Positions 1 through 20,039 of a DNA stretch of 22,172 bases are shown here, piece by piece. Under the pieces are notes generated by a model. That model did no database searches, was not told where the DNA came from, and was given only the letters and a program-made list of their open reading frames with translations. The DNA comes from a virus (Duplodnaviria > Heunggongvirae > Uroviricota > Caudoviricetes). The position numbers were made by a program, and so were the translations under genes. The stretch is from IMG/VR virus record IMGVR_UViG_2585427761_000022, one strand, 5' to 3'. Within the stretch, counting starts at the first letter, position 1, and the number at the start of each line of letters is the position of its first letter.

Positions 1-1002
1 TTACCCTCTATTGTCAAAAGGGTTCAATTCAACAGCAGCCTCTAAATGACCTGGAGCAAAATGCGCATAACGCATAGTCATTTTTATATCGCTATGCCCC
101 AGTATTTTTTGCAACACAAGAATATTTCCGCCCCGCATCATAAAATGACTGGCAAACGTGTGACGTAGCACATGAGTTAATTGCCCATCAGGAAGCTCGA
201 TCTTCGCTCTCTTAATTGCAGCGTCAAAAGCCTCATAACATGGTGAAAATAGCGCTCCTCGTTTTTTAGGAAGCATAGCCTGCAATTGAGGTGAAATCGG
301 TACAGTGCGGTTCTTCTTTCCTTTAGTTTTAACAAATGTGATTCGACCGGGCAGTACTTGAGATTGCTTTAATCCTTCTGCTTCACTCCACCGAGCACCC
401 GTCGCAAGCCCAATACGGACAACAACCCCCAAATCTTTATTCCGTGACTCATCACACGCAATCAGAAGGCGTTCAATCTCATCTACATACAGAAACGCCA
501 GTTCCTTTTCTTCCTCACGAAACTTGCGAATACCAGTCAGGGGGTTTTCACCAGACCACTCCCCAAGGCGCTTCAGTTCGGCAAAAACAGCATGTAGATA
601 TGACTGCTCGCGATTAACGGTTGCTTCACTAAGTTTTTTCTTCCCCTTGGGATTCCATTCTCCTGATAGCCTTCTTTCCCGATAAGTAGCAAACATATTT
701 TTGTCAAACTGAGAAGCAAATGGATCTCCCAGCCTGGAACAAATCGCCTCAAGTTTGACTTTGCGCTCTGCACCAGAGGACAAGGTTTTACCGTACATCT
801 CAAACCAACGAGCAATCAACTCAGAAAGACGAGGACCAGAACCATCTTGAAACTCGTCTCCAACTCTACTATTCATTAAACGGCGCTCATAAGAGAGCGC
901 CTCACTTTTTGTCGCAAACTGTTTACGAATGCGTTTTCCCGATGCCCCGTAGGGATAACATTCGCAAAGCCATTTACCTGATGGAATCTTACGAACCGAC
1001 AT
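1..1002 (-). CDS. int: P2-family tyrosine integrase, complete (stop at 1-3, ATG at 1000-1002)
   Basis: 333-aa ORF with a C-terminal catalytic block HVLRHTFASHFMMRGG...MTMRYAHFAP typical of phage tyrosine recombinases; sits at the prophage end next to the repressor as in P2. Confidence 0.9.
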   Translation of the reverse strand: MSVRKIPSGKWLCECYPYGASGKRIRKQFATKSEALSYERRLMNSRVGDEFQDGSGPRLSELIARWFEMYGKTLSSGAERKVKLEAICSRLGDPFASQFDKNMFATYRERRLSGEWNPKGKKKLSEATVNREQSYLHAVFAELKRLGEWSGENPLTGIRKFREEEKELAFLYVDEIERLLIACDESRNKDLGVVVRIGLATGARWSEAEGLKQSQVLPGRITFVKTKGKKNRTVPISPQLQAMLPKKRGALFSPCYEAFDAAIKRAKIELPDGQLTHVLRHTFASHFMMRGGNILVLQKILGHSDIKMTMRYAHFAPGHLEAAVELNPFDNRG

Positions 1003-1007
1003 TTTAG

Positions 1008-1355
1008 TTACTTATCACATAAATCAAATGCAGCCTTAGTGACATCCCCCAGACTCTTTTTTAACCCTGGGGCGGCATCATTATCTAGCCAAAATGGATT
1101 ATTGTTATCTAACGGTAACGCACCAAATGTTTTACCTTTTATTCGAGCCAAACCTGTAAGTGCATATAACTTATTATCGTCAAAATTCATCACATAAGGA
1201 TTACCATCAAGACACTGTAATTGAACCTCATCAGTATTAAATGGCCATACCCCATTGAAACTCTCACGTTCAATAGTTTTAAAAGGCATTGCGACGGCGG
1301 AAAAAGAAAACATAGATAAAAAAGTAACTAATAGTTGAACCTTTTTTACTTTCAT
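1008..1355 (-). CDS. Small secreted/periplasmic protein (115 aa) with a cleavable signal peptide and two Cys; possibly DUF2511/YebY-like (memory only)
   Basis: N-terminal signal peptide MKVKKVQLLVTFLSMFSFSAVA; RBS GAGGT 7 nt upstream of ATG; AT-rich; co-oriented between int and the upstream membrane-protein gene. Confidence 0.7.
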   Translation of the reverse strand: MKVKKVQLLVTFLSMFSFSAVAMPFKTIERESFNGVWPFNTDEVQLQCLDGNPYVMNFDDNKLYALTGLARIKGKTFGALPLDNNNPFWLDNDAAPGLKKSLGDVTKAAFDLCDK

Positions 1356-1384
1356 ATCATTACCTCAATTTAGCTCAAGTAAGA

Positions 1385-2035
1385 TTACAAATTAAAAAAC
1401 GCCCTAGAAATGACACCGCCTACCAAAACCCCTACGCAGATAAAGAATATTATTTCTTTTGGATAAAGTCGGATTAATTCTGAAGCACGAAGTCGGACTT
1501 CTGGTAAGGTCGAACTCTCTGTGTGGCTTGATGCCGATTGTTGCTCTAACCACGACAATGCAGACTGTAACTGAGAACGAGTAAGATCGTTTAAACGTCC
1601 TGTACCGAAATTGATATGGCAATACCGCAGAAGTTTTTGTCGAAGTCCACAGTCTTCACTGTTACGTAGTAATAAACTTACAAGAGCCTTACAGGCATCA
1701 TGATCTTTACATCGCTCAAGCATTGCATGCAGAAAACTCTCCGCTGTTTTATATTGATTTACTGTCATATCATCAATACCAGCTACACCAATCTCCGCAT
1801 GTACTTTTTGCCAAATAATAAACGCTTCAGTATTGCTAGCTTCTGCAATAGCAGCAACCAAGCTATTTAGCTCCTTACGCTGAGCCTTAAGCAAAGGGCG
1901 ATCGTCATCATCATTATTCGAAGGGATTGCGATATTGACGGTCTGAGAACCATCATATCGCTCTATCTGAATATTCTTTTCGTGAAAATCACGCCCAGCA
2001 ACGCGATTGTTTGAACCGTTTGAGTTGACGGCCAT
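1385..2035 (-). CDS. C-tail-anchored membrane protein (216 aa), function unknown; N-terminus shares the motif NNR[IV]AGRD[YF] with the repressor C-terminus
   Basis: Strong RBS GGGAGGTG before ATG; single C-terminal hydrophobic helix IIFFICVGVLVGGVI; Cys-rich central region; separated from the repressor gene by three stops TGA-TAG-TAG. Confidence 0.75.
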   Translation of the reverse strand: MAVNSNGSNNRVAGRDFHEKNIQIERYDGSQTVNIAIPSNNDDDDRPLLKAQRKELNSLVAAIAEASNTEAFIIWQKVHAEIGVAGIDDMTVNQYKTAESFLHAMLERCKDHDACKALVSLLLRNSEDCGLRQKLLRYCHINFGTGRLNDLTRSQLQSALSWLEQQSASSHTESSTLPEVRLRASELIRLYPKEIIFFICVGVLVGGVISRAFFNL

Positions 2036-2050
2036 GTCACCTCCCTACTA

Positions 2051-2455
2051 TCACCTACCCTTAGTTTCGTTATAGTCACGACCAGCGATACGGTTATTAC
2101 CACCAGAAATATTTAACTCACGTCCTGATGGCTGAGTTTCCTTTTCACTGATCGCACCTTTTAAAGCCCCAATCACCGCATTTTTCACATCTAACGAAGC
2201 TGCTCGAAAGCGAGTAATCAACTCCTGCTCATCATCGTTATAAGTTTCAGGTGAGTGAATTCCCAACACAACATACTGAACATCAAGGCCAAAACGAGAC
2301 AGCGCTGCCAAATACGCAGCATCAGGAAAGCTATCTCCTTTCTCATATCTAAGCTGAGTTAGCTTTTTGACTCCACCAATGTCGCTCATGGCAACTTGAC
2401 TAAGTCCCAATCTTTCCCTTTCCTCACGCAACCGCTGACCAATATCATTTTTCAT
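2051..2455 (-). CDS. Immunity repressor analogue (functional equivalent of P2 C / 186 CI), XRE-family HTH with a C-terminal extension
   Basis: N-terminal Cro/C1-type HTH (LGLSQVAMSDIGGVKKLTQLRYEKG); divergent from the early operon; first gene of a leftward operon ending at int. Confidence 0.85.
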   Translation of the reverse strand: MKNDIGQRLREERERLGLSQVAMSDIGGVKKLTQLRYEKGDSFPDAAYLAALSRFGLDVQYVVLGIHSPETYNDDEQELITRFRAASLDVKNAVIGALKGAISEKETQPSGRELNISGGNNRIAGRDYNETKGR

Positions 2456-2530
2456 ACAAAAACCTTGACAGGTATCTTTTTTGATACCAAAATGATTTCA
2501 CGAGCTATTAGATGATCACAATATACCACT
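2456..2530. promoter_or_regulatory. Divergent lysogenic/lytic switch region with candidate operator: inverted repeat GGTATC-T6-GATACC (2471-2488) abutting a TTGACA -35-like hexamer (2465-2470)
   Basis: 75-bp intergenic region between divergently oriented repressor and early operon; perfect 6-bp inverted repeat with 6-nt spacer. Confidence 0.5.
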
Positions 2531-2737
2531 ATGAAACAAGTTCTTCACGATACCAGATCACGCATTCCGCGTAACACCGCCACAGGTCCAAGACTGGCAC
2601 TTCGGCTGTCCCTCGAGGAGCGAGCCGTCATTGATGAAATGGCAGCTAAAGAACAACGCTCATCCTCTAACATGGCGCGCATGATCTTCCTTCGCGGCCT
2701 AGAGCTAACCCAGAAAGAACAAAACAAATCTTCCTGA
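2531..2737 (+). CDS. Small ribbon-helix-helix-like DNA-binding protein (68 aa), first gene of the early operon
   Basis: Segment LSLEERAVIDEMAAKEQRSSSNMARMIFLRGLE resembles CopG/MobC-type RHH domains; ATG start but no clear RBS. Confidence 0.5.
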   Translation: MKQVLHDTRSRIPRNTATGPRLALRLSLEERAVIDEMAAKEQRSSSNMARMIFLRGLELTQKEQNKSS

Positions 2738-2753
2738 TCAGGAGGCTAGTGGG

Positions 2754-2957
2754 ATGTCAGGTATAACCATCAATATCAATGTGAATGCCCCCTATGTATC
2801 CCTGCAGAAATATGCAGAGATAACAGGTATCCCTCTTAATACATGCAAAAAGATGTTGGCTGACGGTCGAATTATTATCCGACCCAAACGCGCCAAAATG
2901 GAAAAGCCTGAAGTAAACCTTGTGGCGATGTTAAAAGACGCTTTGGCTAACAGCTAA
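2754..2957 (+). CDS. Cox/Apl-like small HTH regulator or excisionase-type protein (67 aa)
   Basis: Strong RBS AGGAGG 9 nt upstream; HTH-like segment YVSLQKYAEITGIPLNTCKKMLADGRI; position equals cox/apl in P2/186. Confidence 0.7.
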   Translation: MSGITININVNAPYVSLQKYAEITGIPLNTCKKMLADGRIIIRPKRAKMEKPEVNLVAMLKDALANS

Positions 2958-2978
2958 AACAATGAACAGAGCACCATC

Positions 2979-3329
2979 ATGAAAAAAAACGCTAATAATC
3001 CATACTCCAAATTTCGTAATGGCGTAGAACGCCATGTACACCACGTCGCTACCAGTGCATCACGTAGTAACAGTCGCTATAACCTGAACGAGACGCACGC
3101 AACACCGGATGGCCACGCTGTAAAACAAATCGGCGAGCATGCCTGGCTGATTGAGAAAGCTGGAATCGTGGTCCACAAATGCCCACGCAATCCGTTTACC
3201 GGAAACCGCATTTTTGCATTGAACTGCGGCGACAATCACTTCGGGCAGGATTTCACATTATACGAAGCACTTCGCACGGTTGATCGTCTGCTTCGCGGGC
3301 AAAGTTTTATTAAACAGGCTGATTTATAA
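2979..3329 (+). CDS. Hypothetical early protein (116 aa)
   Basis: ORF in early operon, co-oriented and tightly packed; weak RBS; no recognisable domain. Confidence 0.55.
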   Translation: MKKNANNPYSKFRNGVERHVHHVATSASRSNSRYNLNETHATPDGHAVKQIGEHAWLIEKAGIVVHKCPRNPFTGNRIFALNCGDNHFGQDFTLYEALRTVDRLLRGQSFIKQADL

Positions 3330-3339
3330 CAGGTGCTTT

Positions 3340-3618
3340 ATGACCAAAGAGCATGCACAAGGTGTATTTATCCGTTTTATTGATTTTCGCGGTGAACTGT
3401 TATTACGCGCATCAGCCATTGACGTAGTTGTTCCATCCGAAAAAAACGCAGCTACTTACGTTTATCTGAACGGTACGCGCCTGACTGTGGAGCTTCCGTA
3501 CCAGACCGTACGAGAAATCATTAGCGAAGCTGAAAAGGCACGTCAGGTTAATGGCGATGAACCCTATATCGAAATTATTTGTATGGATTCAGAAGCTGAA
3601 ATTCAGAAAGCAGATTAA
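3340..3618 (+). CDS. Hypothetical early protein (about 92 aa; internal ATG of the 3280-3618 ORF)
   Basis: ATG at 3340 preceded by AGGTG; upstream part of the track ORF overlaps the preceding gene. Confidence 0.6.
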   Translation: MTKEHAQGVFIRFIDFRGELLLRASAIDVVVPSEKNAATYVYLNGTRLTVELPYQTVREIISEAEKARQVNGDEPYIEIICMDSEAEIQKAD

Positions 3619-3629
3619 AGGGCGTTGTG

Positions 3630-3872
3630 ATGGGCAAAGAATATAAAACTCTCATTAACAAAGCACTTGAGCGTTTTTATTTTCGCTTAAGTGCATCAGG
3701 CGCTCATGCTGAACGTGCGGCCCGTGACTCATTGACCAGAGCAATCCGAAGTCTGTATGACGTGGCTTTTTACGCTGATGATCTGGATGCACTTAACGAA
3801 CTTTCCGAGCTGATCTATGCCGCAGAATGCGGGGAACATATTGAACCGTATAAGCTGGGAAATATCGCATGA
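3630..3872 (+). CDS. Hypothetical early protein (80 aa), predicted helical
   Basis: ATG at 3630 (GTG at 3627 also possible); ORF in operon context. Confidence 0.6.
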   Translation: MGKEYKTLINKALERFYFRLSASGAHAERAARDSLTRAIRSLYDVAFYADDLDALNELSELIYAAECGEHIEPYKLGNIA

Positions 3873-3982
3873 GTATATTTATCTCATGGCTTGTTCTGAT
3901 TATTTCGGTGGTCTGCGCCATTGGGATTATGCGAATTACTAATTCAGTAAAAAAGATTGAACGCTTTTTCACTGAAGAATAA
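3869..3982 (+). CDS. Small hydrophobic peptide (37 aa, MSIFISWLVLIISVVCAIGIMRITNSVKKIERFFTEE), single predicted TM helix; not in the supplied ORF track
   Basis: ATG overlaps the stop of the preceding gene (ATGA coupling); hydrophobic core followed by a charged tail. Confidence 0.4.
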   Translation: MSIFISWLVLIISVVCAIGIMRITNSVKKIERFFTEE

Positions 3983-4068
3983 CCGCGCAAATAAGACCCC
4001 AGGTTAAATAAGAAAATGTGAAAACAATCCGCATTCGCGGAGGTATTCGCACACGCCAAGGAGGCGTA

Positions 4069-7685: not shown

Positions 7686-8496
7686 CATTCATGAACTCAT
7701 CCTTTGCGGTGATCTGCTGGAACGGCAAAATTTGCACCCCCTCTTTGCCCCCGTTGGGCGCATGGATGAGCACGTTTTTAAACGCGCCACCACCACGCGC
7801 ACCCTGTAACGTTTCTTTCAGGGAGTCCATGCTTTCGCGGTTTACCTGCGCTGCACCGATGTAGATGATGCACCCGGCGTGGGATCCATTGTCGTAATAC
7901 AGTTTTCTGAACATGTCCGCCGAATGAGACAGGCTGGCCGAGAGTAATGCGCCAAGATATTCCGGCATGCCGTAAATTTCCTGGTTAATGTCCGGATTCA
8001 TCAGGTGGCACACTTTGCCAGGGCGAAACTGAAACGCATCCTTGCCATCCTGCACATACCACCATGATTCAAGATCGCTTCCGCGTCGCATGTATTTCGC
8101 CAGGGCGTGCCGTAATTTAAGCGGTTCGCCGAACATATTGCTTCGAAGCTCAAGGAATGCGTTACCGAACACAAACCAGTCCAGCGCCAGCGCCGAGAAA
8201 TCCTGCCGGGAAAGCAGCGGGTGCGGGATGTAGCACCCGAGCAATACGTTGCGCTTAAAGTAAAGCGCAGACTGATGCCAGGACGTTTGCCGGGCGGCTC
8301 TTGCCAGACCGTACCAGTCCACCGGGGTTTCATACCACCGCCCGTTATCAGCACAGTACATATTGTCCAGCAAATCATGCCCGGTCAGGCGATAAGGACC
8401 ATCAAAAGTGAATGCACTGAGCGACGATTCTTTCCTGAGCGCATCAGCGAGATCAATGCGTGAACTCATGCGCACTTTTTTATTTTTTCTGCTCAT
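7492..8496 (-). CDS. Q: Portal (capsid portal vertex) protein, P2 gpQ-like
   Basis: 334-aa ORF with conserved portal segment AAHRVPPQLMG; ATG overlaps the terminase stop (TGATG coupling); convergent with A. Confidence 0.85.
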   Translation of the reverse strand: MSRKNKKVRMSSRIDLADALRKESSLSAFTFDGPYRLTGHDLLDNMYCADNGRWYETPVDWYGLARAARQTSWHQSALYFKRNVLLGCYIPHPLLSRQDFSALALDWFVFGNAFLELRSNMFGEPLKLRHALAKYMRRGSDLESWWYVQDGKDAFQFRPGKVCHLMNPDINQEIYGMPEYLGALLSASLSHSADMFRKLYYDNGSHAGCIIYIGAAQVNRESMDSLKETLQGARGGGAFKNVLIHAPNGGKEGVQILPFQQITAKDEFMNVKAASRDDVLAAHRVPPQLMGAMPGVRRLQGLMPPAVPDSWRPGYGGSPCCLRHDYGSGAARAA

Positions 8497-10246
8497 CAGA
8501 ACTCCATAACTGTGAAACGCTCGTTTTCTCCTTCGCCGCCAATTGGTTCGTTAATGACAGCAAGCATGGTTGCCCACGCAAGGTCGCCGTGGCTGCTCCC
8601 CCTCGCGCGGTCCGTTTCGTAAGTGATAAAGCCGCCCGGTGTTTTCACCTTACGCACGGCGTTAAAGGCCGCGACCAGCTCGCGTTCGGCGCGATCGTAT
8701 TCCCACCGCCCGGCACGCATTATTTGCAGCATTTTCAGTACAAGCGACCGTTTTGATGACAGCGTGAAGGTGTACGGAATAGCGGCAGGGAAAAACCGTT
8801 TCACTATCTGATAAACAGCCTCCCCGTTCCCGCCCGTCACATCAATGCCGATGTGTTCCACGTTGTAGCGATACGTGAAATCTTCAATGACTCTGGCCTG
8901 TTCTTCAAACTCCAGCCCCTGAACGCGTCGCGTCTCCACCGTTCGAAAACGGCCACCAGGAACAGCCGGAGGAACCACCACGGACACAGCGCCGCTGTCG
9001 CCGTTGCCACTGCTGCCGTTTGCGTCATACCCAATCCATACCGGACGATTCCCCATCGGGCGGGGAGCAAAAGGTTTCCAGTCTTTCCAGTCGTCGTATC
9101 CGTCAACACCGCAGCCAATCAGGATATTCAGGTTAAATGCCGATTCCCCTTCGCGGACAAACTCACACATATAGAGATTGAGGAACTCGTCTTCGGTGTT
9201 TTCATCACGAATTTCGTCGATATCGGTGTGTTTCCAGCCGTGATTAACCACATCTTCCAGCGTGACAATTTGCCGCCACGTCCGGTCAGGGCAGATAAGC
9301 CCGTTATGCAGCGTTTTCCAGTCCACAGAAAAACGCTGGCGTTTATGCGTGGCCTTTTTCTCGTTCCAGCGGTCGCCGTTCCAGTAGGCGTATGCTTCGT
9401 GCGTTTCGGTGGATGGCGTGGAGAAGTAGGTGCGCCGCAATCCGCTGAGGGTTGCCATAGCGCCAGCCACCTTGCGCAGTTCAGCAAAGCGACTGACCCA
9501 GAAAAATTCATCAAAATAAAAATTGCCCGTATAGGACTGCGCCGACGCAGCAGAAGTGCCGAGAAAATGCAGCTCTGCGCCGTTGGAGAGGATGATTTTA
9601 TCGCCCCCTTTCAGCTCCACATCAACTTCAGCCGCAGCCTTCTGAATAATGCTTTTAAACTGGAACGCCTGACGACGCGACGCAGACAAAAAATCTGGTT
9701 ACGCTGGTAAGGTTGCGCCACATCGTCACGCAGCGCCATCAGCAGTGCTTCCTGTGCAAAATACCAGGTCGCGCCAATCTGTCGGGATTTCAGGATCATC
9801 CTGTTACGTATCCCGGCTTCCCTGCAAAGGGTCAGGGAGTCAAACCAGCCCCGCTGATGCCACTCCAGCCTGCTGATGATTTTTTCCCGCAGTGCGGCAA
9901 TCTGTTCCGGCGTGAAATGATTTTTGAGTTTTTTCGCCCGGCCTTTCTTTCCTGTGGCCGTCGCATCCGGCTGGCCATCATGCATTTTTTTAAGCTGCCG
10001 GGTCAGCAGGTCTATTTCCTTAAAGTCACCGCCTGTTTTATTCTGTTTTTCAGTAAGCTAGATGAGGCGCGCATCGATGGACTGCGTGACACGCTGCACG
10101 GGTGGCGTTTCATCCCACTGGTCGCGTTTTTTCCACGCATAAATCGTGTTCGGGTTTATTCCCATCAGACGTGATATTTCTGCGGGCGGATAACCCTGCC
10201 AGTAAAGTTGCCGCGCACGCTGGCGCACAAAAGCGTCCTGAATCAT
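8496..10246 (-). pseudogene. P: Terminase large (ATPase) subunit, P2 gpP-like, disrupted by an in-frame TAG (10058-10060) and a 1-nt frameshift in an A6 tract (9688-9693)
   Basis: Three ORF-track fragments (10058-10246, 9611-9985, 8496-9689) that read as one terminase when joined: N-terminal HTH-like region, Walker A-like KSRQIGATWYFAQEAL, then large C-terminal domain. Confidence 0.7.
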
Positions 10247-13262: not shown

Positions 13263-13757
13263 ATGAGTATGGTTGCCAGAACTGAACCAGGACCCGCAGA
13301 GGACGACATCACCGATACCGATGATGGCGACACTCGCATTTCAGCAGGTGCATTCTGGCCGGATATTGTGCTGCGCGAGCTGCGTCTGGCGGTACGACTG
13401 CCGGGCCGCGTGACCACCTCCCGCCTGCTGCATACCGCCACTGGGGCCGTGGCTCACGTTACCCGCGAACTGGAAGCGTGGCAGCAGGAACAGCAGGCGG
13501 CTGGCCATCAGACGCTGGCCGATGTTCCGGCACCCGTAATTAACGGAGAAAGCGTCAATCTCTGGCACTGGCGCAATGCTGTTTATACCGCCACACGTGC
13601 CCTGATTCTGGAGCGTTACCGCGATGCGGACACAACGGACAAGGGCGATCGCCGGGCGGACGCACTGGATATACAGACATCGGATTTGTGGCGCGATGTG
13701 AGCTGGGCCATCTCTGACATTCTGTGCCGCCCGCGAATCTTTGCGGAGTTGTGCTGA
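13263..13757 (+). CDS. L: Head completion/stabilisation protein, P2 gpL-like
   Basis: About 164 aa from ATG at 13263 with RBS AGGAG; position after M; stop overlaps the X start. Confidence 0.75.
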   Translation: MSMVARTEPGPAEDDITDTDDGDTRISAGAFWPDIVLRELRLAVRLPGRVTTSRLLHTATGAVAHVTRELEAWQQEQQAAGHQTLADVPAPVINGESVNLWHWRNAVYTATRALILERYRDADTTDKGDRRADALDIQTSDLWRDVSWAISDILCRPRIFAELC

Positions 13758-13957
13758 TGAAAGTGAAGGCACTGGAAGACGACACCGTGGATTCGCTCTG
13801 TTTCCGGTACTACGGCACGACGCAGGGCGTCACCGAAAAGGTGCTGGATGCCAACCCCGGACTCTGTCAGCAGGTATTTCTGGACGCCGGGCAGGAAGTG
13901 GAGATGCCGGAGCCGGAGAAGAAGAAACGAGAAATGATTCAGTTGTGGGGGGAGTAG
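13757..13957 (+). CDS. X: Tail protein X-like small protein (66 aa)
   Basis: ATGA overlap with the L stop; size and position as P2 gpX. Confidence 0.7.
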   Translation: MKVKALEDDTVDSLCFRYYGTTQGVTEKVLDANPGLCQQVFLDAGQEVEMPEPEKKKREMIQLWGE

Positions 13958-13959
13958 CA

Positions 13960-14283
13960 GTGAGCACCATTCAAACAGGGATCACAGAGCAGGTTATTGC
14001 GTGGCTCTTTGACCACCTGCCAACGGTGTATGCAGTAGGCGCGGCGGTCAGCATTTCAGCGCTGATGAGTCTTTATGACGGACGAACACTGGTTCAGACC
14101 GTAACGGGATCGCTGGCGTGCGGCGTTCTTGCCATGGCCGTGGCCGGGTCGTTGCGCTTCTTCGGGTTTCCTGAAGATGCCGTAACGTTTATCGGCGCAT
14201 CAATCGGTTTTATGGGGGCAGAGAAAGTACGCGACAAGGTTATTGCGGCCTTTAATCGCAGGGTGAAGGAGAAGGACGAATGA
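13960..14283 (+). CDS. Holin (about 107 aa, GTG start, multiple TM helices)
   Basis: RBS GGGGGAG before GTG at 13960; hydrophobic segments VYAVGAAVSISALMSL, VTGSLACGVLAMAVAGSL, VTFIGASIGFMGA; directly upstream of the endolysin. Confidence 0.65.
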   Translation: MSTIQTGITEQVIAWLFDHLPTVYAVGAAVSISALMSLYDGRTLVQTVTGSLACGVLAMAVAGSLRFFGFPEDAVTFIGASIGFMGAEKVRDKVIAAFNRRVKEKDE

Positions 14284-14672
14284 GCAACACATTTAAATTC
14301 AGCAGCCGGAGCGAAAAGAATTTGCAGGGCGTAAATCCTGATCTGGTGAAAGTGACCCGACGGGCACTGGAAATTTCGGAAGTGGATTTTGGTATCACCG
14401 AAGGATTGCGCAGCCGTTACCGCCAGAAGCAACTTGTGGCCACGGGTAAGAGCCATACCATAAACAGCCGCCACCTTACGGGGCATGCCGTGGATGTTGT
14501 GGCTTATGTCGGCAGCCAGGTGTCATGGGAATGGCCGCTGTACGAAAAAATCGCAGCAGCATTCAGACAGGCCAGCCAGGAACTGAATATTCCGGTGGAA
14601 TGGGGCGGCGACTGGAAGACCCTGAAAGACGGACCGCATTTTCAGTTACCACACGGAGCCTATCCGGCATGA
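14280..14672 (+). CDS. Endolysin, peptidase M15-type (zinc D-Ala-D-Ala carboxypeptidase / L-Ala-D-Glu endopeptidase family), not a P2 K-type lysozyme
   Basis: 130 aa; motif SRHLTGHAVDV typical of the VanY/M15 metal-binding site; between holin and spanins; ATGA coupling. Confidence 0.75.
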   Translation: MSNTFKFSSRSEKNLQGVNPDLVKVTRRALEISEVDFGITEGLRSRYRQKQLVATGKSHTINSRHLTGHAVDVVAYVGSQVSWEWPLYEKIAAAFRQASQELNIPVEWGGDWKTLKDGPHFQLPHGAYPA

Positions 14673-15142
14673 AGCTCTGGCCCACGCTTGGCGTCGCTTT
14701 CCTTCTGATTGCCGCATGGGGAACATCCATGCGTCTGTCGTGGTCGCTGGGCCGGGAGAACGCCAGAAACGAAGCGCAGACCAGCACCCTGAAAAGTACC
14801 GTCGACACACTGAATATCATCAGCGCCGGGGTACAGGATATGCAGCAGGTGCTGGCTCAACTCCGCGCGGAAAATCAGCAACGCAATCAGGACGGAGAGG
14901 TAAGACGTGAACAGCTACGCAACGATATTGCAAAAGATGAATGCGCCCACGCTTTGCCTGACGCTCGTTTTACTGACAGGTTGCGCAGGCACGCAGAACG
15001 CGCCACGGCCAGCGCCGTCAATCCGGCTTATACCGCAGACGCTGACCATGCCGGTAACGCCTCCCCCCTTCCCTGCCCCACCCACATGGGGAAACCTCGG
15101 AATATGGGGCGACCGCCTTCTGGATGCACTGGAAACCTGTAA
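14669..15142 (+). CDS. i-spanin (Rz / LysB-like), N-terminal TM plus coiled coil
   Basis: ATG at 14669 overlaps the endolysin stop; TM segment LGVAFLLIAAWGT followed by a Gln/Arg-rich helical region. Confidence 0.7.
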   Translation: MKLWPTLGVAFLLIAAWGTSMRLSWSLGRENARNEAQTSTLKSTVDTLNIISAGVQDMQQVLAQLRAENQQRNQDGEVRREQLRNDIAKDECAHALPDARFTDRLRRHAERATASAVNPAYTADADHAGNASPLPCPTHMGKPRNMGRPPSGCTGNL

Positions 15143-15218
15143 CGCGGATAAACGGGCCATTGCTGAACTGGATAAGAGAATAGCCGAACTGACACACCAG
15201 ACGGGAGTAACACAATGA
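14907..15218 (+). CDS. o-spanin (Rz1 / LysC-like) outer-membrane lipoprotein, starting inside the i-spanin gene in the +1 frame and extending past it
   Basis: Lipobox LLTGC; Pro-rich mature region; GTG at 14907 with RBS GGAGAGG (ATG at 14937 is an alternative start); classic overlapped spanin architecture. Confidence 0.6.
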   Translation: MNSYATILQKMNAPTLCLTLVLLTGCAGTQNAPRPAPSIRLIPQTLTMPVTPPPFPAPPTWGNLGIWGDRLLDALETCNADKRAIAELDKRIAELTHQTGVTQ

Positions 15219-17095
15219 CCAGTAAGAACTTTGCACTGATTACAGCCATGACACAGGCTGAACTGACCCGGAAAGTGAATGAATATCTTGCGAAGGGGTG
15301 GCATCTTCAGGGGGACACACGGGTAGCTTACGAGCCCGGCACCCCGTGGTATCTCATGCAGGCCATGGTGGCCGATGGTGCCACCGAGACGCCCTCTGAG
15401 CCATTACCAAACAACAAGACGCCGGAATGGTACTACGTGGTTGTGCTTGCCGGGCAGTCCAACGGCATGGCTTACGGTGAAGGGCTTCCGTTACCGGATT
15501 CTTACGATGCTCCGGATCCGCGCATTAAACAGCTTGCGCGCCGCAGTACGGTAACCCCGGGTGGAGAGGGTTGTACGTATAACGACATCATCCCGGCTGA
15601 CCACTGTCTGCATGATGTGCAGGATATGAGTACGCTGAATCATCCGAAGGCGGACCTGAGCAAAGGTCAGTACGGCTGTGTGGGACAGGGACTTCATATT
15701 GCCAAAAAACTACTCCCGTATATCCCGAATAACGCGGGGATCCTGCTGGTACCATGCTGTCGTGGTGGTTCGGCATTCACTCAGGGCGCGGAGGGAACAT
15801 TCAGTACGACCACGGGGGCCAGCCAGGATTCGGCGCGCTGGGGTGCGGGTAAGCCGTTATATCAGGACCTGATCGCACGCACCAAAGCGGCATTACAGAA
15901 GAACCCGAAAAATGTGTTGCTGGCGGTGTGCTGGATGCAGGGCGAATTTGACATGAGCGCTGCCACCTACGCACAGCAACCGGACCTGTTCACGGCCATG
16001 CTGAAGCAGTTCCGTACTGACCTTTCCGGATTTAACGCGCAGTGCCATGGCGGCAGTGCTGCAGTTATACCGTGGATTTGTGGCGACACGACGTATTACT
16101 GGAAAAACACATACGGCACACAGTATGACTCCGTCTACGGCGCGTACAAAAACAGGGAGAGCGACAACGTTTTCTTTGTGCCGTTCATGACCGACGGTAA
16201 CGGCAACAACACGCCCACCAACTTACCGGCAGAAGACCCGGATATTGCTGATGCAGGTTATTACGGCGCGCAATCCCGTAGTAATGGTAATTGGGTATCG
16301 TCAAATCGTCCGACACATTTCAGTTCATGGGCGCGCAGGGGCATTATTTCGGATCGCCTGGCAACCGCTATTCTGAACGCAGTTGGTCGAACCAGCGCCT
16401 TCATCAGCGGTACCGCACCGGAAATCAAACCCTCGCCCGGCGGCGACACTCCATCGGGGCCGTCTGATGGTGACACATCCGTTCGTACAGTCTCCCTGCT
16501 GCCGACAGCCGGAGAGGCTGCTGCGCAGGGCTGGACCATCACCGGCGGCAGTGTTGCGCTGGAAGATGGTGTGTTTAAGGTTACCAAGCAGAGCAATAAA
16601 ACTTGGTCCCTGATGCATCCGGTGGATGACGCAGTCTCCCTGCTGACACGGGGTGGCAGACTGAGCTGTAAGTTTCGACTGTCAGGCGCACTGACCAACA
16701 ACCAGTTCGGTCTGGGAATTTATCTGTATACCGATGTAGCGTTACCTGACGTCGTGGCGATGACCGGGACTGGTAACCCGTTCCTGATGTCGTTCTTCAC
16801 CCAGACCACAGACGGCAAACTGAATCTGATGCATCACAAGAAAGCCGGAAACACAAAGTTGGGTGAGTTCGGGAATTACAGTAACGACTGGCAGACGCTG
16901 GAGCTGGTGTTCACCGCCGGCAGTGCCACGGTTACTCCGAAACTGAATGGAGTGGCTGGCCCGGCATTCCAGGTCATAAAAGACAGTCTGACACTGGGGC
17001 TGAATGCGCTGACGTTAACTGATATCACTAAAAATGCCGCGTACGGCGTCGATATCGGCAGCCTGGTGCTGGAAATCAATAATCCCGCAGTATAA
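15215..17095 (+). CDS. NanS-p-like sialate (9-O-acetyl) esterase moron: N-terminal DUF1737-like domain, SASA/SGNH-type esterase domain, C-terminal putative carbohydrate-binding domain
   Basis: 626 aa; N-terminus FALITAMTQAELTRKVNEYLAKGWHLQG (DUF1737-like); catalytic-type motif VVLAGQSNGMAYGEG; ATG overlaps the o-spanin stop; no equivalent gene in P2. Confidence 0.7.
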   Translation: MTSKNFALITAMTQAELTRKVNEYLAKGWHLQGDTRVAYEPGTPWYLMQAMVADGATETPSEPLPNNKTPEWYYVVVLAGQSNGMAYGEGLPLPDSYDAPDPRIKQLARRSTVTPGGEGCTYNDIIPADHCLHDVQDMSTLNHPKADLSKGQYGCVGQGLHIAKKLLPYIPNNAGILLVPCCRGGSAFTQGAEGTFSTTTGASQDSARWGAGKPLYQDLIARTKAALQKNPKNVLLAVCWMQGEFDMSAATYAQQPDLFTAMLKQFRTDLSGFNAQCHGGSAAVIPWICGDTTYYWKNTYGTQYDSVYGAYKNRESDNVFFVPFMTDGNGNNTPTNLPAEDPDIADAGYYGAQSRSNGNWVSSNRPTHFSSWARRGIISDRLATAILNAVGRTSAFISGTAPEIKPSPGGDTPSGPSDGDTSVRTVSLLPTAGEAAAQGWTITGGSVALEDGVFKVTKQSNKTWSLMHPVDDAVSLLTRGGRLSCKFRLSGALTNNQFGLGIYLYTDVALPDVVAMTGTGNPFLMSFFTQTTDGKLNLMHHKKAGNTKLGEFGNYSNDWQTLELVFTAGSATVTPKLNGVAGPAFQVIKDSLTLGLNALTLTDITKNAAYGVDIGSLVLEINNPAV

Positions 17096-17118
17096 GGAAG
17101 AGCAGGAGAGCAAAACAG

Positions 17119-17586
17119 ATGCTTAAGACAAACAGTCTGCGAGAGTCCATGCTTCATGGATGTCGGTGGTGCCAGGCTAATCCCGAGAAATTCACCATTT
17201 TCGTGGAGAGCGGCAACATTGAAACGACCGGAGAAGCGCCCTCGTTTGTTTACCGCTATCAGATGGTGATGTTTATCATGGATTACGCCGGAGAGCTGGA
17301 CGACCTCACGCTGCCGCTGCTGGCGTGGTTATCCGAAAATCAGCCACAGTTGTTGCTCAATCCGGAGCGTAATCAGGACATCAAATTTTCTGCCGTTATC
17401 AATGACGATGACAGCGCCGATCTCCTGTTTACGCTCCCCCTGCGGGAACGCGTTCGCATCACGCGCAACAGTCAGGGCACACCGCAGGCAGAACACCTGC
17501 CGGAGCCAAAACCCCGTCTGCCTTCTTCCGAAGGCGACTGGTCGCATGTATTCCAGGATGTGACGTGGGGTGAAAGCGATGGATAA
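17119..17586 (+). CDS. R: Tail completion protein, P2 gpR-like
   Basis: 155 aa, same size as P2 gpR; RBS AGGAGAG; first gene after the lysis/moron block. Confidence 0.8.
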   Translation: MLKTNSLRESMLHGCRWCQANPEKFTIFVESGNIETTGEAPSFVYRYQMVMFIMDYAGELDDLTLPLLAWLSENQPQLLLNPERNQDIKFSAVINDDDSADLLFTLPLRERVRITRNSQGTPQAEHLPEPKPRLPSSEGDWSHVFQDVTWGESDG

Positions 17587-18214
17587 GGCATTCACCCGCG
17601 TGGATGAAACCTTTGAGGCTATCCGCGACAGCCTGAATCAGCAGGCCATCAATAACATCGCCAGAAAGCTGGCACAGGATTTACGTCGCGCCCAGCAGGC
17701 ACGTATCCGGTCACAAAAAGCGCCGGACGGGACCGAATGGACACCACGCAGACGCCGCGTAACCCGGATACAGGAGCGCATTCGCTTTATCTGGAATAAC
17801 GAAGCACGCACGCTGAAAAACTGGCATCACGACACGGGGAAATACGGGCGAACCATTACCGGGTGGGATGAGGATAAAAACAATATCCGCACGTTTTACC
17901 GGGATGACATCGACCGTTTTCTGGAAATACGCACCCGGCGCATCAACCAGGACAGCACAAAGCGCGTCCCCATGTTCGTAAAACTGCGCACCGCCCGCTA
18001 CCTGAAAGCCCGTGCAGATGCCTCCGGTGTGACGGTGGGTTACAGCGGCGTGGCCGCACGTATTGCACGCGTTCATCAGTTCGGTGAGCGCGATCAGGTT
18101 GCGCCGGGCATTTTCACCGATTACCCGGTACGTGAGCTGTTGGGTATCAGCCAGGCAGATGAGCGCCTGATTTATAACACGGTGCTGGGCCGGATTGCGG
18201 AGGCTGTACGGTGA
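17579..18214 (+). CDS. S: Tail completion / virion morphogenesis protein, P2 gpS-like (about 211 aa, longer than the ~150 aa I recall for P2 S)
   Basis: ATG at 17579 overlapping the R 3' end; position between R and V. Confidence 0.7.
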   Translation: MDKAFTRVDETFEAIRDSLNQQAINNIARKLAQDLRRAQQARIRSQKAPDGTEWTPRRRRVTRIQERIRFIWNNEARTLKNWHHDTGKYGRTITGWDEDKNNIRTFYRDDIDRFLEIRTRRINQDSTKRVPMFVKLRTARYLKARADASGVTVGYSGVAARIARVHQFGERDQVAPGIFTDYPVRELLGISQADERLIYNTVLGRIAEAVR

Positions 18215-18792
18215 GCGCAGAACTCATGCGACTGCTGAGCAACATCATCCGCACCGGGATCATCTCTGAAGTTGATGAGAAGTCCTGGCGCGTGCGCGTT
18301 CGCAGCGGCGAACTGGAAACAGGCTGGTTGCGCTGGAACACCACGCGCGCGGGAGCCTTCAATGTGTGGCTGCCGCCATCACCAGGCGAACAGGTGGTAA
18401 TTGCCTGCATTGGCGGCAACCCGGAAACCGCCATGATAATTGGCAGCCTGTGGAGTGATGCCAGTCCGGCCCCCGGCAAAAGCCTGAAAGAAATCGTGGT
18501 CAGCGCGCCGGATGGCGCGGTGTTCCGCTACGACGCAGACGCTGGCGCACTGAGCGCCAGCGGCATGAAAACAGCCACCCTGCAGGCATCCGTCAGCGTG
18601 ACACTGGATACGCCCGTCGTGGAATGCACAAACCTTCTGAGAACAGCGACGCTTGACGTCACAAAAGGGGGAAAGATGAGCGGCAATATCACGCACAGCG
18701 GCGGCAACTTCACCTCAAACGGCATCACAGTGCATACGCATAAACACGGTGGCGTTAAAGGTGGCAGCGATTCGACAGGAGGCCCGCAGTGA
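18211..18792 (+). CDS. V: Baseplate spike/assembly protein, P2 gpV-like
   Basis: GTG start with RBS GGAGG and GTGA overlap with S; recalled conserved block IRTGII..EQV.I..GG as in P2 gpV. Confidence 0.8.
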   Translation: MSAELMRLLSNIIRTGIISEVDEKSWRVRVRSGELETGWLRWNTTRAGAFNVWLPPSPGEQVVIACIGGNPETAMIIGSLWSDASPAPGKSLKEIVVSAPDGAVFRYDADAGALSASGMKTATLQASVSVTLDTPVVECTNLLRTATLDVTKGGKMSGNITHSGGNFTSNGITVHTHKHGGVKGGSDSTGGPQ

Positions 18793-19139
18793 CAGCCCGC
18801 TACACAGGAATGAACCCGGACGGGACGGGAAACCTGAATGATATGGAGCACCTGAAACAGTCAGCCAGGGACATCCTGACCACCCCGCTGGCCAGCCGGG
18901 TTATGCGACGGGAATATGGCAGCCTTGTACCTGATTTGATTGACGAACCCATGAATAACACCACGCGTCTGCAATGCATGAGTGCTGCCGTGATTGCGCT
19001 GACACGATGGGAACCCCGCATTGCCCTGGACGCCATCGACGTTGTCTGGAAAGCGGGAGGCCGCGCCGGGGTGACGCTGTCGGGCACAGTCATGCAGACC
19101 ATGCAGAATGTTGAGTTAACCATCACGCTGAGGGAGTAA
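18789..19139 (+). CDS. W: Baseplate wedge protein, P2 gpW-like (GPW/gp25 family)
   Basis: 116 aa; GTG start with RBS AGGAGG; GTGA overlap with V; position. Confidence 0.8.
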   Translation: MTARYTGMNPDGTGNLNDMEHLKQSARDILTTPLASRVMRREYGSLVPDLIDEPMNNTTRLQCMSAAVIALTRWEPRIALDAIDVVWKAGGRAGVTLSGTVMQTMQNVELTITLRE

Positions 19140-19142
19140 ATC

Positions 19143-20039
19143 ATGCCTGCTGTTGACCTTTCCCAGTTACCGGAACCCGCCATCATCGCGGAGCCTGACT
19201 TTGAAGCAATTCTGGCTGACACAAAGGCCATGATGATTGCGTCCTATCCTGCCGAACAGCGTGAAGCCGTCTCCGCCGCGCTGGAGCTGGAATCGGAGCC
19301 CCTGAACGTTATCGCTCAAACCATGTCTTTTCGTGAAATGCTGTTACGCCAGCGGGTTAACGAGGGCGCACGCGCCTGCATGTTAAGCCACGGTTCAGGG
19401 ACAAACCTGGACAACCTCGCGGGCAATATGAACACAAAGCGCCTGGTTATCACTCCGGCAACGGATACCACCGACGCGGTGATGGAGAGCGACACCTCGC
19501 TGAGACTGCGGGCGCAGCGGGCGTATGACGGCCTGAGTGTTGCTGGCCCGTCAGGTGCATACGAGTATTTTGCACGCAGCGCCAGCGGTCTGGTGCGTAA
19601 TGCGCGGGCCATCAGCCCGTCTCCGGCCTGTGTGACGGTTTCCATTCTGTCCACTGAAGGCGACGGCACAGCAACGGAGGCGTTGCTTAATACCGTTCGC
19701 GCCGTTCTGAATGCAGAGGATACCCGCCCGGTGGCCGACCGCCTGACGGTACAGAGCGCCAGAATCGTGACATGGCGGCTGAATGCAAAACTGTACTTTT
19801 ACCCCGGCCCGGAATCCGAACCTATTCTGGCCGCGGCGGAATCGTCATTCAGGAAGTGGCTGGCTGAACAGGGGCTTATCGGTCAGGACGTGGCGTTGTC
19901 CGCCATTGCTGCCGCACTGCATGTGCACGGTGTGCAACGCGTGGAGATAATCGAACCCACACAGAATATGGCCATCAGCGACATACAGGCGGCGCGCTGT
20001 GAGTCATTCACCATCAGCGAAGGTGGGCGCAATGAGTAA
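19143..20039 (+). CDS. J: Baseplate assembly protein, P2 gpJ-like
   Basis: 298 aa (P2 J about 302 aa); RBS GAGGGAG; position. Confidence 0.85.
   Translation: MPAVDLSQLPEPAIIAEPDFEAILADTKAMMIASYPAEQREAVSAALELESEPLNVIAQTMSFREMLLRQRVNEGARACMLSHGSGTNLDNLAGNMNTKRLVITPATDTTDAVMESDTSLRLRAQRAYDGLSVAGPSGAYEYFARSASGLVRNARAISPSPACVTVSILSTEGDGTATEALLNTVRAVLNAEDTRPVADRLTVQSARIVTWRLNAKLYFYPGPESEPILAAAESSFRKWLAEQGLIGQDVALSAIAAALHVHGVQRVEIIEPTQNMAISDIQAARCESFTISEGGRNE

What the first reader, a model, noticed from the sequence alone, without database searches (positions are those of the whole stretch)
1008..2455. Accessory cassette between the repressor and int: tail-anchored membrane protein plus small secreted protein in the lysogenic operon
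In P2 the repressor gene is followed directly by int. Here two extra co-oriented genes are inserted, a 216-aa protein with one C-terminal TM helix and a Cys-rich cytoplasmic region, and a 115-aa signal-peptide protein. Both have good RBSs (GGGAGGTG, GAGGT) and the block is visibly more AT-rich than the structural genes, suggesting acquired cargo. Being transcribed with the repressor, they should be expressed in the lysogen, the classic position for superinfection-exclusion, abortive-infection or lysogenic-conversion genes (compare lambda rexAB, P22 sieA). I recognise no characterised defence family, so this is my leading candidate for an undescribed prophage-encoded membrane-associated protection system.
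Basis: partly seen in the sequence, partly recalled or inferred. Interest (0 to 1): 0.75.

Follow-up and report, generated by a model that had tools for sequence, protein, structure and literature searches.

The report
Phage repressor with motif-matched membrane partner
The two extra genes between the repressor and integrase of this E. coli P2-like prophage are different things: a membrane-anchored protein that always travels with this type of repressor and carries a copy of the repressor's tail motif at its own start, suggesting the two proteins dock to each other, and a small periplasmic protein that is ordinary swappable cargo in an already known hotspot.

Summary
The genes exist as described: repressor (134 aa), a 216-aa C-terminally anchored protein, a 115-aa signal-peptide protein, then int. 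They are tightly packed on the minus strand with no terminator. The reading as one acquired cassette is only half right.

orf115 is a DUF2511/YebY-family periplasmic protein. It is true cargo: the slot in front of int holds at least 9 alternative gene families in related phages. The cI-int junction is already a published defence hotspot (K139 glo; Rousset 2022).

orf216 is not cargo. It is a Flk_N-domain (PF27202) protein found directly downstream of this XRE-type repressor in essentially every relative examined. These include P2-like and Mu-like phages of Enterobacterales, Pseudomonas and Gilliamella.

The unexpected result is that the repressor's disordered C-terminal tail (LNISGGNNRIAGRDYNE) repeats at the N-terminus of orf216 (VNSNGSNNRVAGRDFHE). 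The motif differs between clades, but the two partners always match. No permutation of partners out of 100,000 reached the observed score. 60% of identical residues use different codons, so selection acts on the protein.

The likeliest reading is a two-piece immunity module, with a membrane-tethered partner that docks to the repressor. No known defence family matches, and no published description of the pairing was found.

The parts
2051..2455 (-). XRE-type CI-like repressor, 134 aa: HTH (residues 1-65), two helices (74-102) and a disordered tail (105-134)
   Evidence: ORF. HTH_31/HTH_3 and phrog_8 hits. AF2 model: HTH plus helices at pLDDT about 90, tail below 50. 232 homologues.
2066..2119 (-). 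Repressor C-terminal tail motif LNISGGNNRIAGRDYNE (residues 113-130), followed by the basic tip TKGR
   Evidence: Local alignment to the orf216 N-terminus scores 62, z = 6.8 against shuffles. It is one of only two copies in the window. The motif is conserved in dialect A repressors.
1979..2029 (-). Matching N-terminal motif of orf216, VNSNGSNNRVAGRDFHE (residues 3-19)
   Evidence: N10, R11, D16 and E19 are invariant in 47 homologues; G14 and R15 are invariant among 14 and at least 90% conserved among 47. 5 of 9 identical residues use different codons. The figure is 60% over 41 loci.
1385..2035 (-). orf216: tail-anchored inner-membrane protein with a cytoplasmic Flk_N (PF27202) helical domain. 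It is the conserved partner gene of the repressor.
   Evidence: phrog_5825 full length. Partial NCBIfam Flk hit, 58 bits. PF27202 on homologues, named Flk_N. Always directly downstream of the repressor.
1520..1903 (-). Flk_N-like helical core of orf216 (residues 45-172)
1394..1456 (-). C-terminal transmembrane anchor of orf216 (residues 194-214)
   Evidence: Kyte-Doolittle 19-residue maximum of 2.36 at residue 195. AF2 helix 192-215. The sequence varies between homologues but is always hydrophobic.
1008..1355 (-). orf115: periplasmic DUF2511/YebY-family protein. It is the variable cargo gene in front of int.
   Evidence: Pfam PF10709, 28.4 bits against a cutoff of 21. phrog_2950. PDB YebY 7n0j, E 0.003. 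Cys48 and Cys113 match the YebY disulfide positions. The slot holds other cargo in related loci.
1290..1355 (-). Signal peptide of orf115 (residues 1-22, MKVKKVQLLVTFLSMFSFSAVA|M)
   Evidence: Read from the sequence; hydrophobic maximum. YebY family members are periplasmic (PMC8689200).
1..1002 (-). Tyrosine integrase, last gene of the operon
   Evidence: Int_N plus Phage_integrase. Lies next to yecA in the host chromosome.
2456..2530 (.). Divergent control region between the repressor and the Arc-like/Cox genes
   Evidence: Promoter-like site on the + strand at 2465-2493. GGTATC-N6-GATACC palindrome seen. Inverted repeats. No leftward promoter was found by the consensus scan.

Best explanation
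The region is the lysogenic operon of one particular immunity-module type: repressor, membrane partner, cargo, int.

orf216 is the second subunit of the immunity module. It is a cytoplasm-facing protein held in the inner membrane by a C-terminal anchor. Its Flk_N helical domain is of a kind found in phage regulatory and antirepressor proteins.

The first ~20 residues of orf216 copy the repressor's disordered C-terminal tail. I infer that the two matching segments pair with each other, as a beta-strand zipper or stacked beta-arch. This would dock repressor molecules to the membrane-tethered partner.

The partner would then act as a detachable C-terminal domain of the repressor. It would set the repressor's oligomeric state, availability or stability. 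It could also couple maintenance of lysogeny to the state of the membrane or to turnover of the anchored protein.

orf115 is separate. It is a secreted, disulfide-bonded YebY-like protein sitting in the known cargo hotspot before int. Its most likely role is a lysogen-expressed envelope function, such as exclusion of incoming phage or binding of an envelope-active compound.

Shown here: gene order, conservation of the pair, the matched and co-varying motifs, protein-level selection on both copies, domain identities and the variability of the cargo slot.

Inferred: physical docking, the effect on the repressor, expression in the lysogen and any phenotype of orf115.
For: 1. Pairing. The orf216 homologue starts 1-28 nt after (or slightly overlaps) a rep134-type repressor in nearly all ~120 loci from three collections. 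The few larger or negative offsets are frameshifted, re-started or intervening-gene cases such as L012, L020 and L021. The pair also occurs in Mu-like phages.

2. Matched termini. In the window the pair scores 62, z = 6.8. Within a motif dialect, tail against N-terminus scores 61 (A) and 47 (B). Across dialects the scores are 19-22, equal to the shuffled background of 19.8 +/- 4.3.

3. Own-partner test. For twelve pairs from 8 dialects, 0 of 100,000 partner permutations reach the observed sum. With one pair per dialect, 6 of 40,320 do.

4. Protein-level selection. 60% of identical residues in the two copies use different codons over 41 unique loci.

5. Negative control. A tail-less relative of the repressor (P0362) is followed by genes without such an N-terminus.

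6. Natural fusion. P0255 joins an XRE HTH, a G/N-rich linker and a Flk_N-like domain in one chain.

7. Variable partner body. Partners with the motif can carry other cytosolic domains, such as a Zn-ribbon or coiled coil. Most, but not all, keep a membrane anchor.

8. Disordered termini. Both motif segments are low-confidence termini in monomer AF2 models, as expected for a segment that folds on binding.

9. Partner domain. The Flk_N core resembles small peptide- or protein-binding helical domains of phage proteins and occurs in Rha-type regulators.

10. orf115. Its family, Cys pair and signal peptide are documented. The slot is variable. K139 and the published hotspot provide precedent.
Against: - No direct evidence of binding. 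AF2 monomer models give no structure for either motif; the orf216 N-terminus is even drawn as a weak helix.
- Some motif-bearing partners lack a membrane anchor (L151 66 aa, L152 116 aa).
- In L132 and L133 the repressor has no tail, although a Flk_N protein follows. The motif is therefore not the only way the pair can be organised.
- Two of the twelve pairs (D1, G) do not rank their own partner highly.
- A third, phage-encoded factor that recognises both termini would give the same co-variation.
- Expression of the operon in lysogens was not checked.
- For orf115, the only studied relatives act in copper delivery (YebY) or lantibiotic self-resistance (MlbQ), not phage exclusion.
Confidence: 0.5

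Rival explanations
1. Amyloid-type signalling pair used for abortive infection. The shared motif is a prion-like templating element, as in Bab/Agp or HET-S/NWD2. A change in the repressor, for example an attack by an incoming phage's antirepressor, or assembly of the membrane protein, is passed on through cross-beta templating. The membrane protein then damages the membrane or the repressor is inactivated.
For: - The layout is the one used to discover bacterial amyloid signalling motifs: the same short motif at the C-terminus of one protein and the N-terminus of the next.
- The motifs are about 17-28 residues, rich in G/N/Q, with alternating hydrophobic residues in dialects B-F.
- Partners co-vary.
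- Bab/Agp shows that such pairs exist in E. coli prophages.
Against: - There is no NLR/STAND or TPR sensor and no Bell/HeLo-type effector.
- Dialect A is highly charged (NRxAGRDFNE).
- The RHIM-like G-h-Q-h-G signature is absent.
- AF2 gives no beta structure.
- There is no PADLOC match.
- An irreversible aggregating switch on the sole immunity repressor would be risky for a stable lysogen.
Confidence: 0.15
2. orf216 is a superinfection-exclusion or defence protein that merely rides with the immunity region, as rexAB does with lambda cI. The motif similarity is then a leftover of a gene fission or duplication with no present function.
For: - It is co-oriented with and packed against the repressor.
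- It is membrane-located, like many exclusion proteins.
- It lies in a region published as a hotspot.
- Related immunity types also carry tail-anchored proteins before int.
Against: - A neutral leftover would not stay matched within each clade while diverging between clades.
- It would not be held at the protein level with saturated synonymous sites.
- The protein faces the cytoplasm with almost no periplasmic part.
- There is no defence-model hit.
- Its cytosolic domain is of a regulatory type.
Confidence: 0.15
3. Both termini are tags read by a common third factor, for example a protease such as FtsH, Lon or ClpXP, or a phage-encoded antirepressor. The repressor and the membrane protein would then be degraded or inactivated together, or the membrane protein would act as a decoy that protects the repressor.
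For: - The motifs sit at free, disordered termini and are followed by a Lys-rich tip in the repressors, which is typical of degrons.
- Mu-type repressors are known, from my own knowledge, to be controlled through their C-terminal tail by ClpXP.
Against: - Different dialects coexist within one host genus. Pseudomonas has A in L019 and L021 and B in L105-L134. Pectobacterium has A in P0297 and P0312 and C in P0309. This argues against a conserved host reader.
- No third motif-bearing or obviously cognate gene was found in the window.
Confidence: 0.15

Closest known systems
Vibrio phage K139 lysogenic operon (cI - orf2 - glo - int) and the cI-int defence hotspot of K139-like phages (Rousset et al. 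2022)
   Same: Both are P2-related phages with two extra co-oriented genes between the repressor and int. One of the two is a small periplasmic protein, and K139 Glo is annotated as involved in phage exclusion. The junction is described as a hotspot. K139 orf2 (BRCT) is 33% identical (E 3e-51) to cargo found in the same slot of relatives of this window.
   Different: Glo is not homologous to orf115 (E 7.5). K139 has a Phage_CI_repr/CI_C repressor, not the short XRE repressor with a tail. K139 has no Flk_N partner and no matched motif.
Bab/Agp (BASS11) and other amyloid signalling motif gene pairs
   Same: Adjacent genes whose products share a short motif at the C-terminus of one and the N-terminus of the other, found in E. 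coli prophages. The partners' motifs resemble each other more than those of other pairs.
   Different: The carriers here are a DNA-binding repressor and a tail-anchored Flk_N protein, not a pore-forming effector and a large sensor. Amyloid formation is untested. The motif consensus, G-[QN]-x-h-A-G-x-[DN]-h-x-N, is not one of the described signatures that I could check.
Flk (Fluke, RflH) of Salmonella and E. coli
   Same: [quoted passage not shown] It shares the Flk_N domain: NCBIfam E 8e-16 over residues 35-166, and PF27202 on homologues.
   Different: Flk is 333 aa with two copies of the region and no N-terminal motif. It acts on the flagellar type III export switch. orf216 scores 58 bits against a cutoff of 353, so it is not an orthologue. 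The phage proteins also occur in non-flagellar contexts.
E. coli YebY (PDB 7N0J) and MlbQ, family DUF2511
   Same: orf115 passes the Pfam threshold. It has a signal peptide and cysteines at positions 48 and 113, the positions of the YebY disulfide. DUF2511 genes between a recombinase and a phage CI repressor were already noted.
   Different: The relationship is distant: E 0.003 to YebY. The gene is not in a yobA-yebZ-yebY copper operon. The phage subfamily is small, with 18 clusters. No function has been tested.
Lambda RexA/RexB with CI
   Same: Genes transcribed with the repressor in the lysogen, one of them a membrane protein. A preprint (10.1101/2021.04.19.439022, listed) reports that RexA and RexB assist the transition from lysogeny to lytic growth. 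So accessory genes next to the repressor gene can modulate the switch as well as exclude phage.
   Different: There is no sequence relationship (no PADLOC hit). No shared terminal motif is known for Rex.

Membership tests
DUF2511 / YebY (PF10709), for orf115 | Profile match above the curated threshold | tested here: met
   28.4 bits against a cutoff of 21, covering profile positions 2-87 of 87. Homologues carry PF10709.
DUF2511 / YebY (PF10709), for orf115 | Export signal and the two conserved disulfide cysteines | tested here: met
   Signal-peptide-like N-terminus. Cys48 and Cys113 match the YebY Cys48-Cys113 disulfide. Actual export was not tested.
DUF2511 / YebY (PF10709), for orf115 | Membership of a yobA-yebZ-yebY copper operon (YebY proper) | tested here: not met
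   The neighbours are a Flk_N gene and int.
Flk_N domain proteins (PF27202), for orf216 | Flk_N domain | tested here: met
   The 99% identical P0001 and nearly all homologues carry PF27202, named Flk_N. The model is missing from the local Pfam copy. NCBIfam Flk aligns to residues 35-166, E 8e-16.
Flk orthologue (NCBIfam PRK10715 equivalog), for orf216 | Full-length match above the equivalog cutoff | tested here: not met
   58.3 bits against a cutoff of 353, covering only profile positions 18-149 of 339.
Tail-anchored inner-membrane proteins, for orf216 | A single hydrophobic helix at the extreme C-terminus with the bulk of the protein in the cytoplasm | tested here: met
   The only hydrophobic maximum is at residues 194-214 of 216. 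AF2 helix 192-215. There is no signal peptide. Topology was not tested experimentally.
Amyloid signalling motif pairs (BASS type) | The same short motif at the C-terminus of one protein and the N-terminus of the adjacent gene's product | tested here: met
Amyloid signalling motif pairs (BASS type) | Carriers are an NLR/STAND or TPR sensor and a cell-death effector (Bell, HeLo, TIR and others) | tested here: not met
   The carriers are an XRE repressor and a Flk_N protein.
Amyloid signalling motif pairs (BASS type) | The motif forms amyloid and templates its partner | not testable with these tools
   Monomer AF2 models show only low-confidence termini. No multimer prediction or amyloid predictor was available.
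Known anti-phage defence systems (PADLOC-DB 2.0) | Match of either accessory protein to a defence model | tested here: not met
   No family matched for orf115 or orf216 at E <= 0.1.
cI-int cargo/defence hotspot of P2-related phages | A variable gene set between the conserved repressor module and int | tested here: met
   The gap between the Flk_N gene and int ranges from 76 to 1874 nt and holds at least 9 unrelated cargo families. One family is shared with K139. The published hotspot is cited.
P2-type immunity region (C repressor directly followed by int) | C-type repressor adjacent to int | tested here: not met
   The repressor here is XRE type, with Arc-like plus Cox genes opposite it. P88 has the P2 arrangement.

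The most novel reading that the evidence does not exclude
A family of temperate-phage repressors is wired to membrane-anchored partner proteins through a self-matching, clade-specific terminal 'zip code', possibly a beta-solenoid or amyloid-like element. The lysis-lysogeny switch of many P2-like and Mu-like phages would then be read out or controlled at the inner membrane. This would be a new mode of repressor control. It would also extend matched-motif (amyloid-type) signalling from cell-death systems to transcriptional switches.
Probability: 0.3. Interest if true: 0.85.

Novelty: new variant of a known kind. Interest (0 to 1): 0.62.

Why it matters
Control of phage repressors is textbook biology: RecA-driven self-cleavage, antirepressors and proteolysis. 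A repressor that carries a short terminal code matched to a membrane-anchored partner encoded by the next gene is not among the described mechanisms, as far as my searches show.

The pair is common. It occurs in about 9% of complete E. coli genomes, including O157:H7, and also in Klebsiella, Serratia, Pectobacterium, Pseudomonas and Gilliamella phages.

It is easy to test, because the motif dialects offer natural swap experiments. If the segments dock, this gives a simple specificity code for building orthogonal repressor-partner pairs. It would also link prophage stability to membrane state.

The practical correction for annotation is that only the gene next to int is hotspot cargo. The 'membrane protein' next to the repressor belongs to the immunity module.

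Tried and rejected
- PADLOC on both proteins: no match.
- Pfam on orf216: only sub-threshold chance hits (zf-P11, ELYS). The 'Cys-rich/zinc' idea was dropped because the cysteines are not conserved.
- Readthrough or fusion of the repressor and orf216: rejected. They share a frame in the window but are separated by three consecutive stop codons (TGA TAG TAG), and the frame relation is not kept in other loci.
- DNA-level repeat or gene conversion as the cause of the motif match: rejected on codon usage.
- Low-complexity composition as the cause: rejected because cross-dialect scores equal the shuffled background.
- A third motif copy in the prophage: none found.
- Homology of K139 Glo to orf115: none.
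- Phage collection: only one deposited record carries the genes, a predicted prophage with frameshifts.
- Promoter scan: no leftward promoter found.
- Technical failures: alignment A3 was too divergent for a locus scan; the scan with P0192 found nothing; the afdb50 library was unavailable; the Nesper 1999 paper is not held.
- BFVD fold search: only weak matches.
- Literature searches for Flk with prophage, for DUF2511 with prophage, for tail-anchored proteins with repressor, and for Flk_N/PF27202 found no description of the pair.
Full report
**What is in the sequence**

The window is a P88-like (Xuanwuvirus, Peduoviridae) prophage of E. coli integrated next to yecA. It is 100% identical over positions 1-4000 to E. 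coli O111:H21 strain 15A.

Four genes are tightly packed on the minus strand:
- an XRE-type repressor, 2455-2051, 134 aa
- orf216, 2035-1385
- orf115, 1355-1008
- int, 1002-1

The gaps are 15, 29 and 5 nt, and no terminator-like site lies between the genes.

orf216 has a single hydrophobic helix two residues from its C-terminus. orf115 has a classical signal peptide.

Two details of the observation do not hold:
- The cysteines of orf216 are not conserved.
- The low G+C is a property of the whole left arm (43-45%), with only orf115 (35%) standing out.

The block is common. 504 of 5426 complete E. coli genomes carry it, many of them O157:H7.

**What the two proteins are**

orf115 is a DUF2511/YebY-family protein:
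- It scores 28.4 bits in Pfam against a cutoff of 21.
- It matches the solved YebY structure 7N0J at E 0.003.
- It has cysteines at positions 48 and 113, the positions of the YebY disulfide.

orf216 matches phrog_5825 over its full length. Residues 35-166 align to the N-terminal part of the flagellar regulator Flk (E 8e-16), far below the orthologue cutoff. Its homologues carry Pfam PF27202, named Flk_N.

[quoted passage not shown] A profile search of 1.84 billion representative proteins found only 138 relatives. These are short phage-type proteins and the longer Flk orthologues.

The same subdomain is fused to a Rha domain in P0229. It gives a near-threshold ORF6C hit in P0255.

Neither protein matches a PADLOC defence model.

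**The cassette is two things**

In 20 loci from reference genomes and about 110 from viral contigs, the orf216 homologue is directly downstream of a rep134-type repressor in essentially every case, usually 1-28 nt after it. Arc-like and Cox genes lie on the other side.

The pair also occurs in Mu-like transposable phages of Pectobacterium and Gilliamella and in metagenomes. It is therefore a module that moves between phage types.

The stretch between the Flk_N gene and int is variable. It is 76 to 1874 nt long and holds at least nine unrelated cargo families. These include:
- DUF2511
- two kinds of BRCT proteins with partial similarity to the PADLOC candidate PDC-S48
- small acidic proteins
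- zinc-ribbon proteins
- coiled-coil tail-anchored proteins

The phage-type DUF2511 subfamily is small, with 18 clusters. In Klebsiella, Citrobacter and Serratia it sits in the same place.

**This slot is not new**

Phage K139 has cI - orf2 (BRCT) - glo - int, with Glo annotated as a periplasmic protein involved in phage exclusion. K139 orf2 is 33% identical to the 291-aa cargo of Kosakonia and Enterobacter relatives of this window.

Rousset et al. 2022 describe the cI-int junction of K139-like phages as a defence hotspot. A 2026 preprint counts 8% of P2 defence systems between int and the primase.

The YebY paper already mentions DUF2511 genes between a recombinase and a phage CI repressor. 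Glo and orf115 are not homologous.

**The unexpected part**

The repressor ends with ...LNISGGNNRIAGRDYNETKGR, and orf216 begins MAVNSNGSNNRVAGRDFHE. The local alignment scores 62, z = 6.8 against shuffles. These are the only two copies in the prophage.

The same holds in every enterobacterial locus (dialect A: G-x-x-N-R-x-A-G-R-D-F/Y-x-E).

In a high-G+C, apparently Pseudomonas-type clade (the contigs carry no host label) the repressor tail is different: TFHGxVGQxVAGNhTNKSGVTFNVG. The partner's N-terminus there is MSQDFHGxVGQxAxGDINNYG, again a match.

Further dialects were found in Pectobacterium, in Gilliamella and in metagenomic Mu-like phages, each with a matching partner.

Quantitatively:
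- Tail against N-terminus scores 61 and 47 within dialects A and B.
- Across dialects the scores are 19-22, the same as the shuffled background of 19.8 +/- 4.3.
- For twelve pairs, none of 100,000 random re-pairings reaches the observed sum of own-pair scores.
- With one pair per dialect, 6 of 40,320 permutations do.
- Over 41 unique loci, 60% of the residues that are identical in the two copies are encoded by different codons. The match is therefore kept by selection on the proteins, not by DNA homogenisation.

Further observations bear on the pairing:
- A tail-less relative of the repressor is followed by genes without such an N-terminus.
- Some loci have two motif-bearing downstream proteins.
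- The partner's body can be a zinc ribbon or coiled coil instead of Flk_N.
- One protein (P0255) fuses an XRE HTH, a G/N-rich linker and a Flk_N-like domain.
- AF2 leaves both motif segments as low-confidence termini.

Exceptions exist:
- Two short partners lack a membrane anchor.
- Two of the twelve pairs rank their own partner poorly.

**How it most likely works**

The simplest reading is that the two matched segments pair with each other. The membrane-anchored protein would then act as a non-covalent C-terminal domain of a repressor that otherwise has only an HTH and two helices.

That would set the repressor's oligomeric state, availability or stability at the inner membrane. The natural fusion supports a single functional unit.

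Which direction the control takes, co-repressor or sequestering antirepressor, cannot be decided here.

The layout is formally that of amyloid signalling pairs such as Bab/Agp of E. coli prophages, and several dialects have that composition. However, the carriers are of a different kind and amyloid formation is untested.

A shared third-party reader, such as a protease or a phage factor, is a further possibility. Coexistence of different dialects in one host genus argues against a host reader.

A stand-alone exclusion role for orf216 is not excluded, but it does not explain the co-varying termini.

For orf115 the best guess is a lysogen-expressed periplasmic function. This rests on position, on the K139 Glo precedent and on the ligand-binding relative MlbQ.

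**Verdict**

The conserved repressor-partner pair with matched, co-varying termini is the finding worth following. I found no description of it in four literature searches.

All functional statements are inferences from sequence.

Noticed in passing
L104 (NZ_CP077477.1 record 16648-41669); the window covers only one arm (about window 13378-22172): In the 100%-identical RefSeq chromosome, the prophage late region appears as a mirror-image inverted duplication. The capsid, lysis, tail and baseplate genes occur twice with identical protein accessions, meeting at the tail-fibre genes. This is either a real rearranged double prophage or an assembly artefact.
   Followed up: no
window about 7928-9203 (+): Genes for a ParM-type segregation ATPase and a plasmid partitioning/stability protein lie downstream of the replication endonuclease gene of this integrated P2-like prophage (annotation of the identical record).
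   Followed up: no
window about 18190-20067 (+): A 625-aa DUF6645 protein gene is inserted between the lysis genes and the tail genes, another likely accessory locus.
   Followed up: no
window 2531-2737 (+) versus 2545-2682 (-): The 68-aa Arc-like ORF matches phrog_3431 (E 1e-28) but is not annotated in the RefSeq chromosome. The chromosome record instead calls a 45-aa hypothetical ORF on the opposite strand, whereas the phage record 520873 annotates the Arc-like gene.
   Followed up: partly
window 2456-2530: The control region holds a perfect GGTATC-N6-GATACC palindrome just upstream of the repressor start, and a rightward promoter-like site at 2465-2493. No leftward consensus promoter and only a weak Shine-Dalgarno sequence precede the repressor, so the transcript may have little or no leader.
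   Followed up: partly
L136-L140, L149-L152: The same repressor and motif-matched partner module sits next to Mu-like transposition genes (rve transposase, DUF3102, Mom, holin/SLT) in Pectobacterium, Gilliamella and metagenomic contigs. The module therefore crosses phage families.
   Followed up: partly
L007 6635-7513, L009 6663-7538 and relatives: Two different BRCT-domain proteins of about 290 aa occupy the slot before int in related prophages. Both have partial similarity to the PADLOC candidate PDC-S48, and one is a homologue of K139 orf2. They are candidate defence genes of the hotspot.
   Followed up: partly
L141/L142 3357-4132: A related E. coli immunity type has a tail-less 119-aa repressor and is seen on many contigs. 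It carries a 117-aa zinc-ribbon protein and a 140-aa coiled-coil tail-anchored protein between the repressor and int. The same two families also appear as cargo in other loci.
   Followed up: no
L002 (Escherichia phage 520873, NC_049344) 2048-3065: The only deposited phage record with these genes has both orf216 and orf115 broken by frameshifts and left unannotated, and its int is split in two. The record looks like a low-quality predicted prophage.
   Followed up: no
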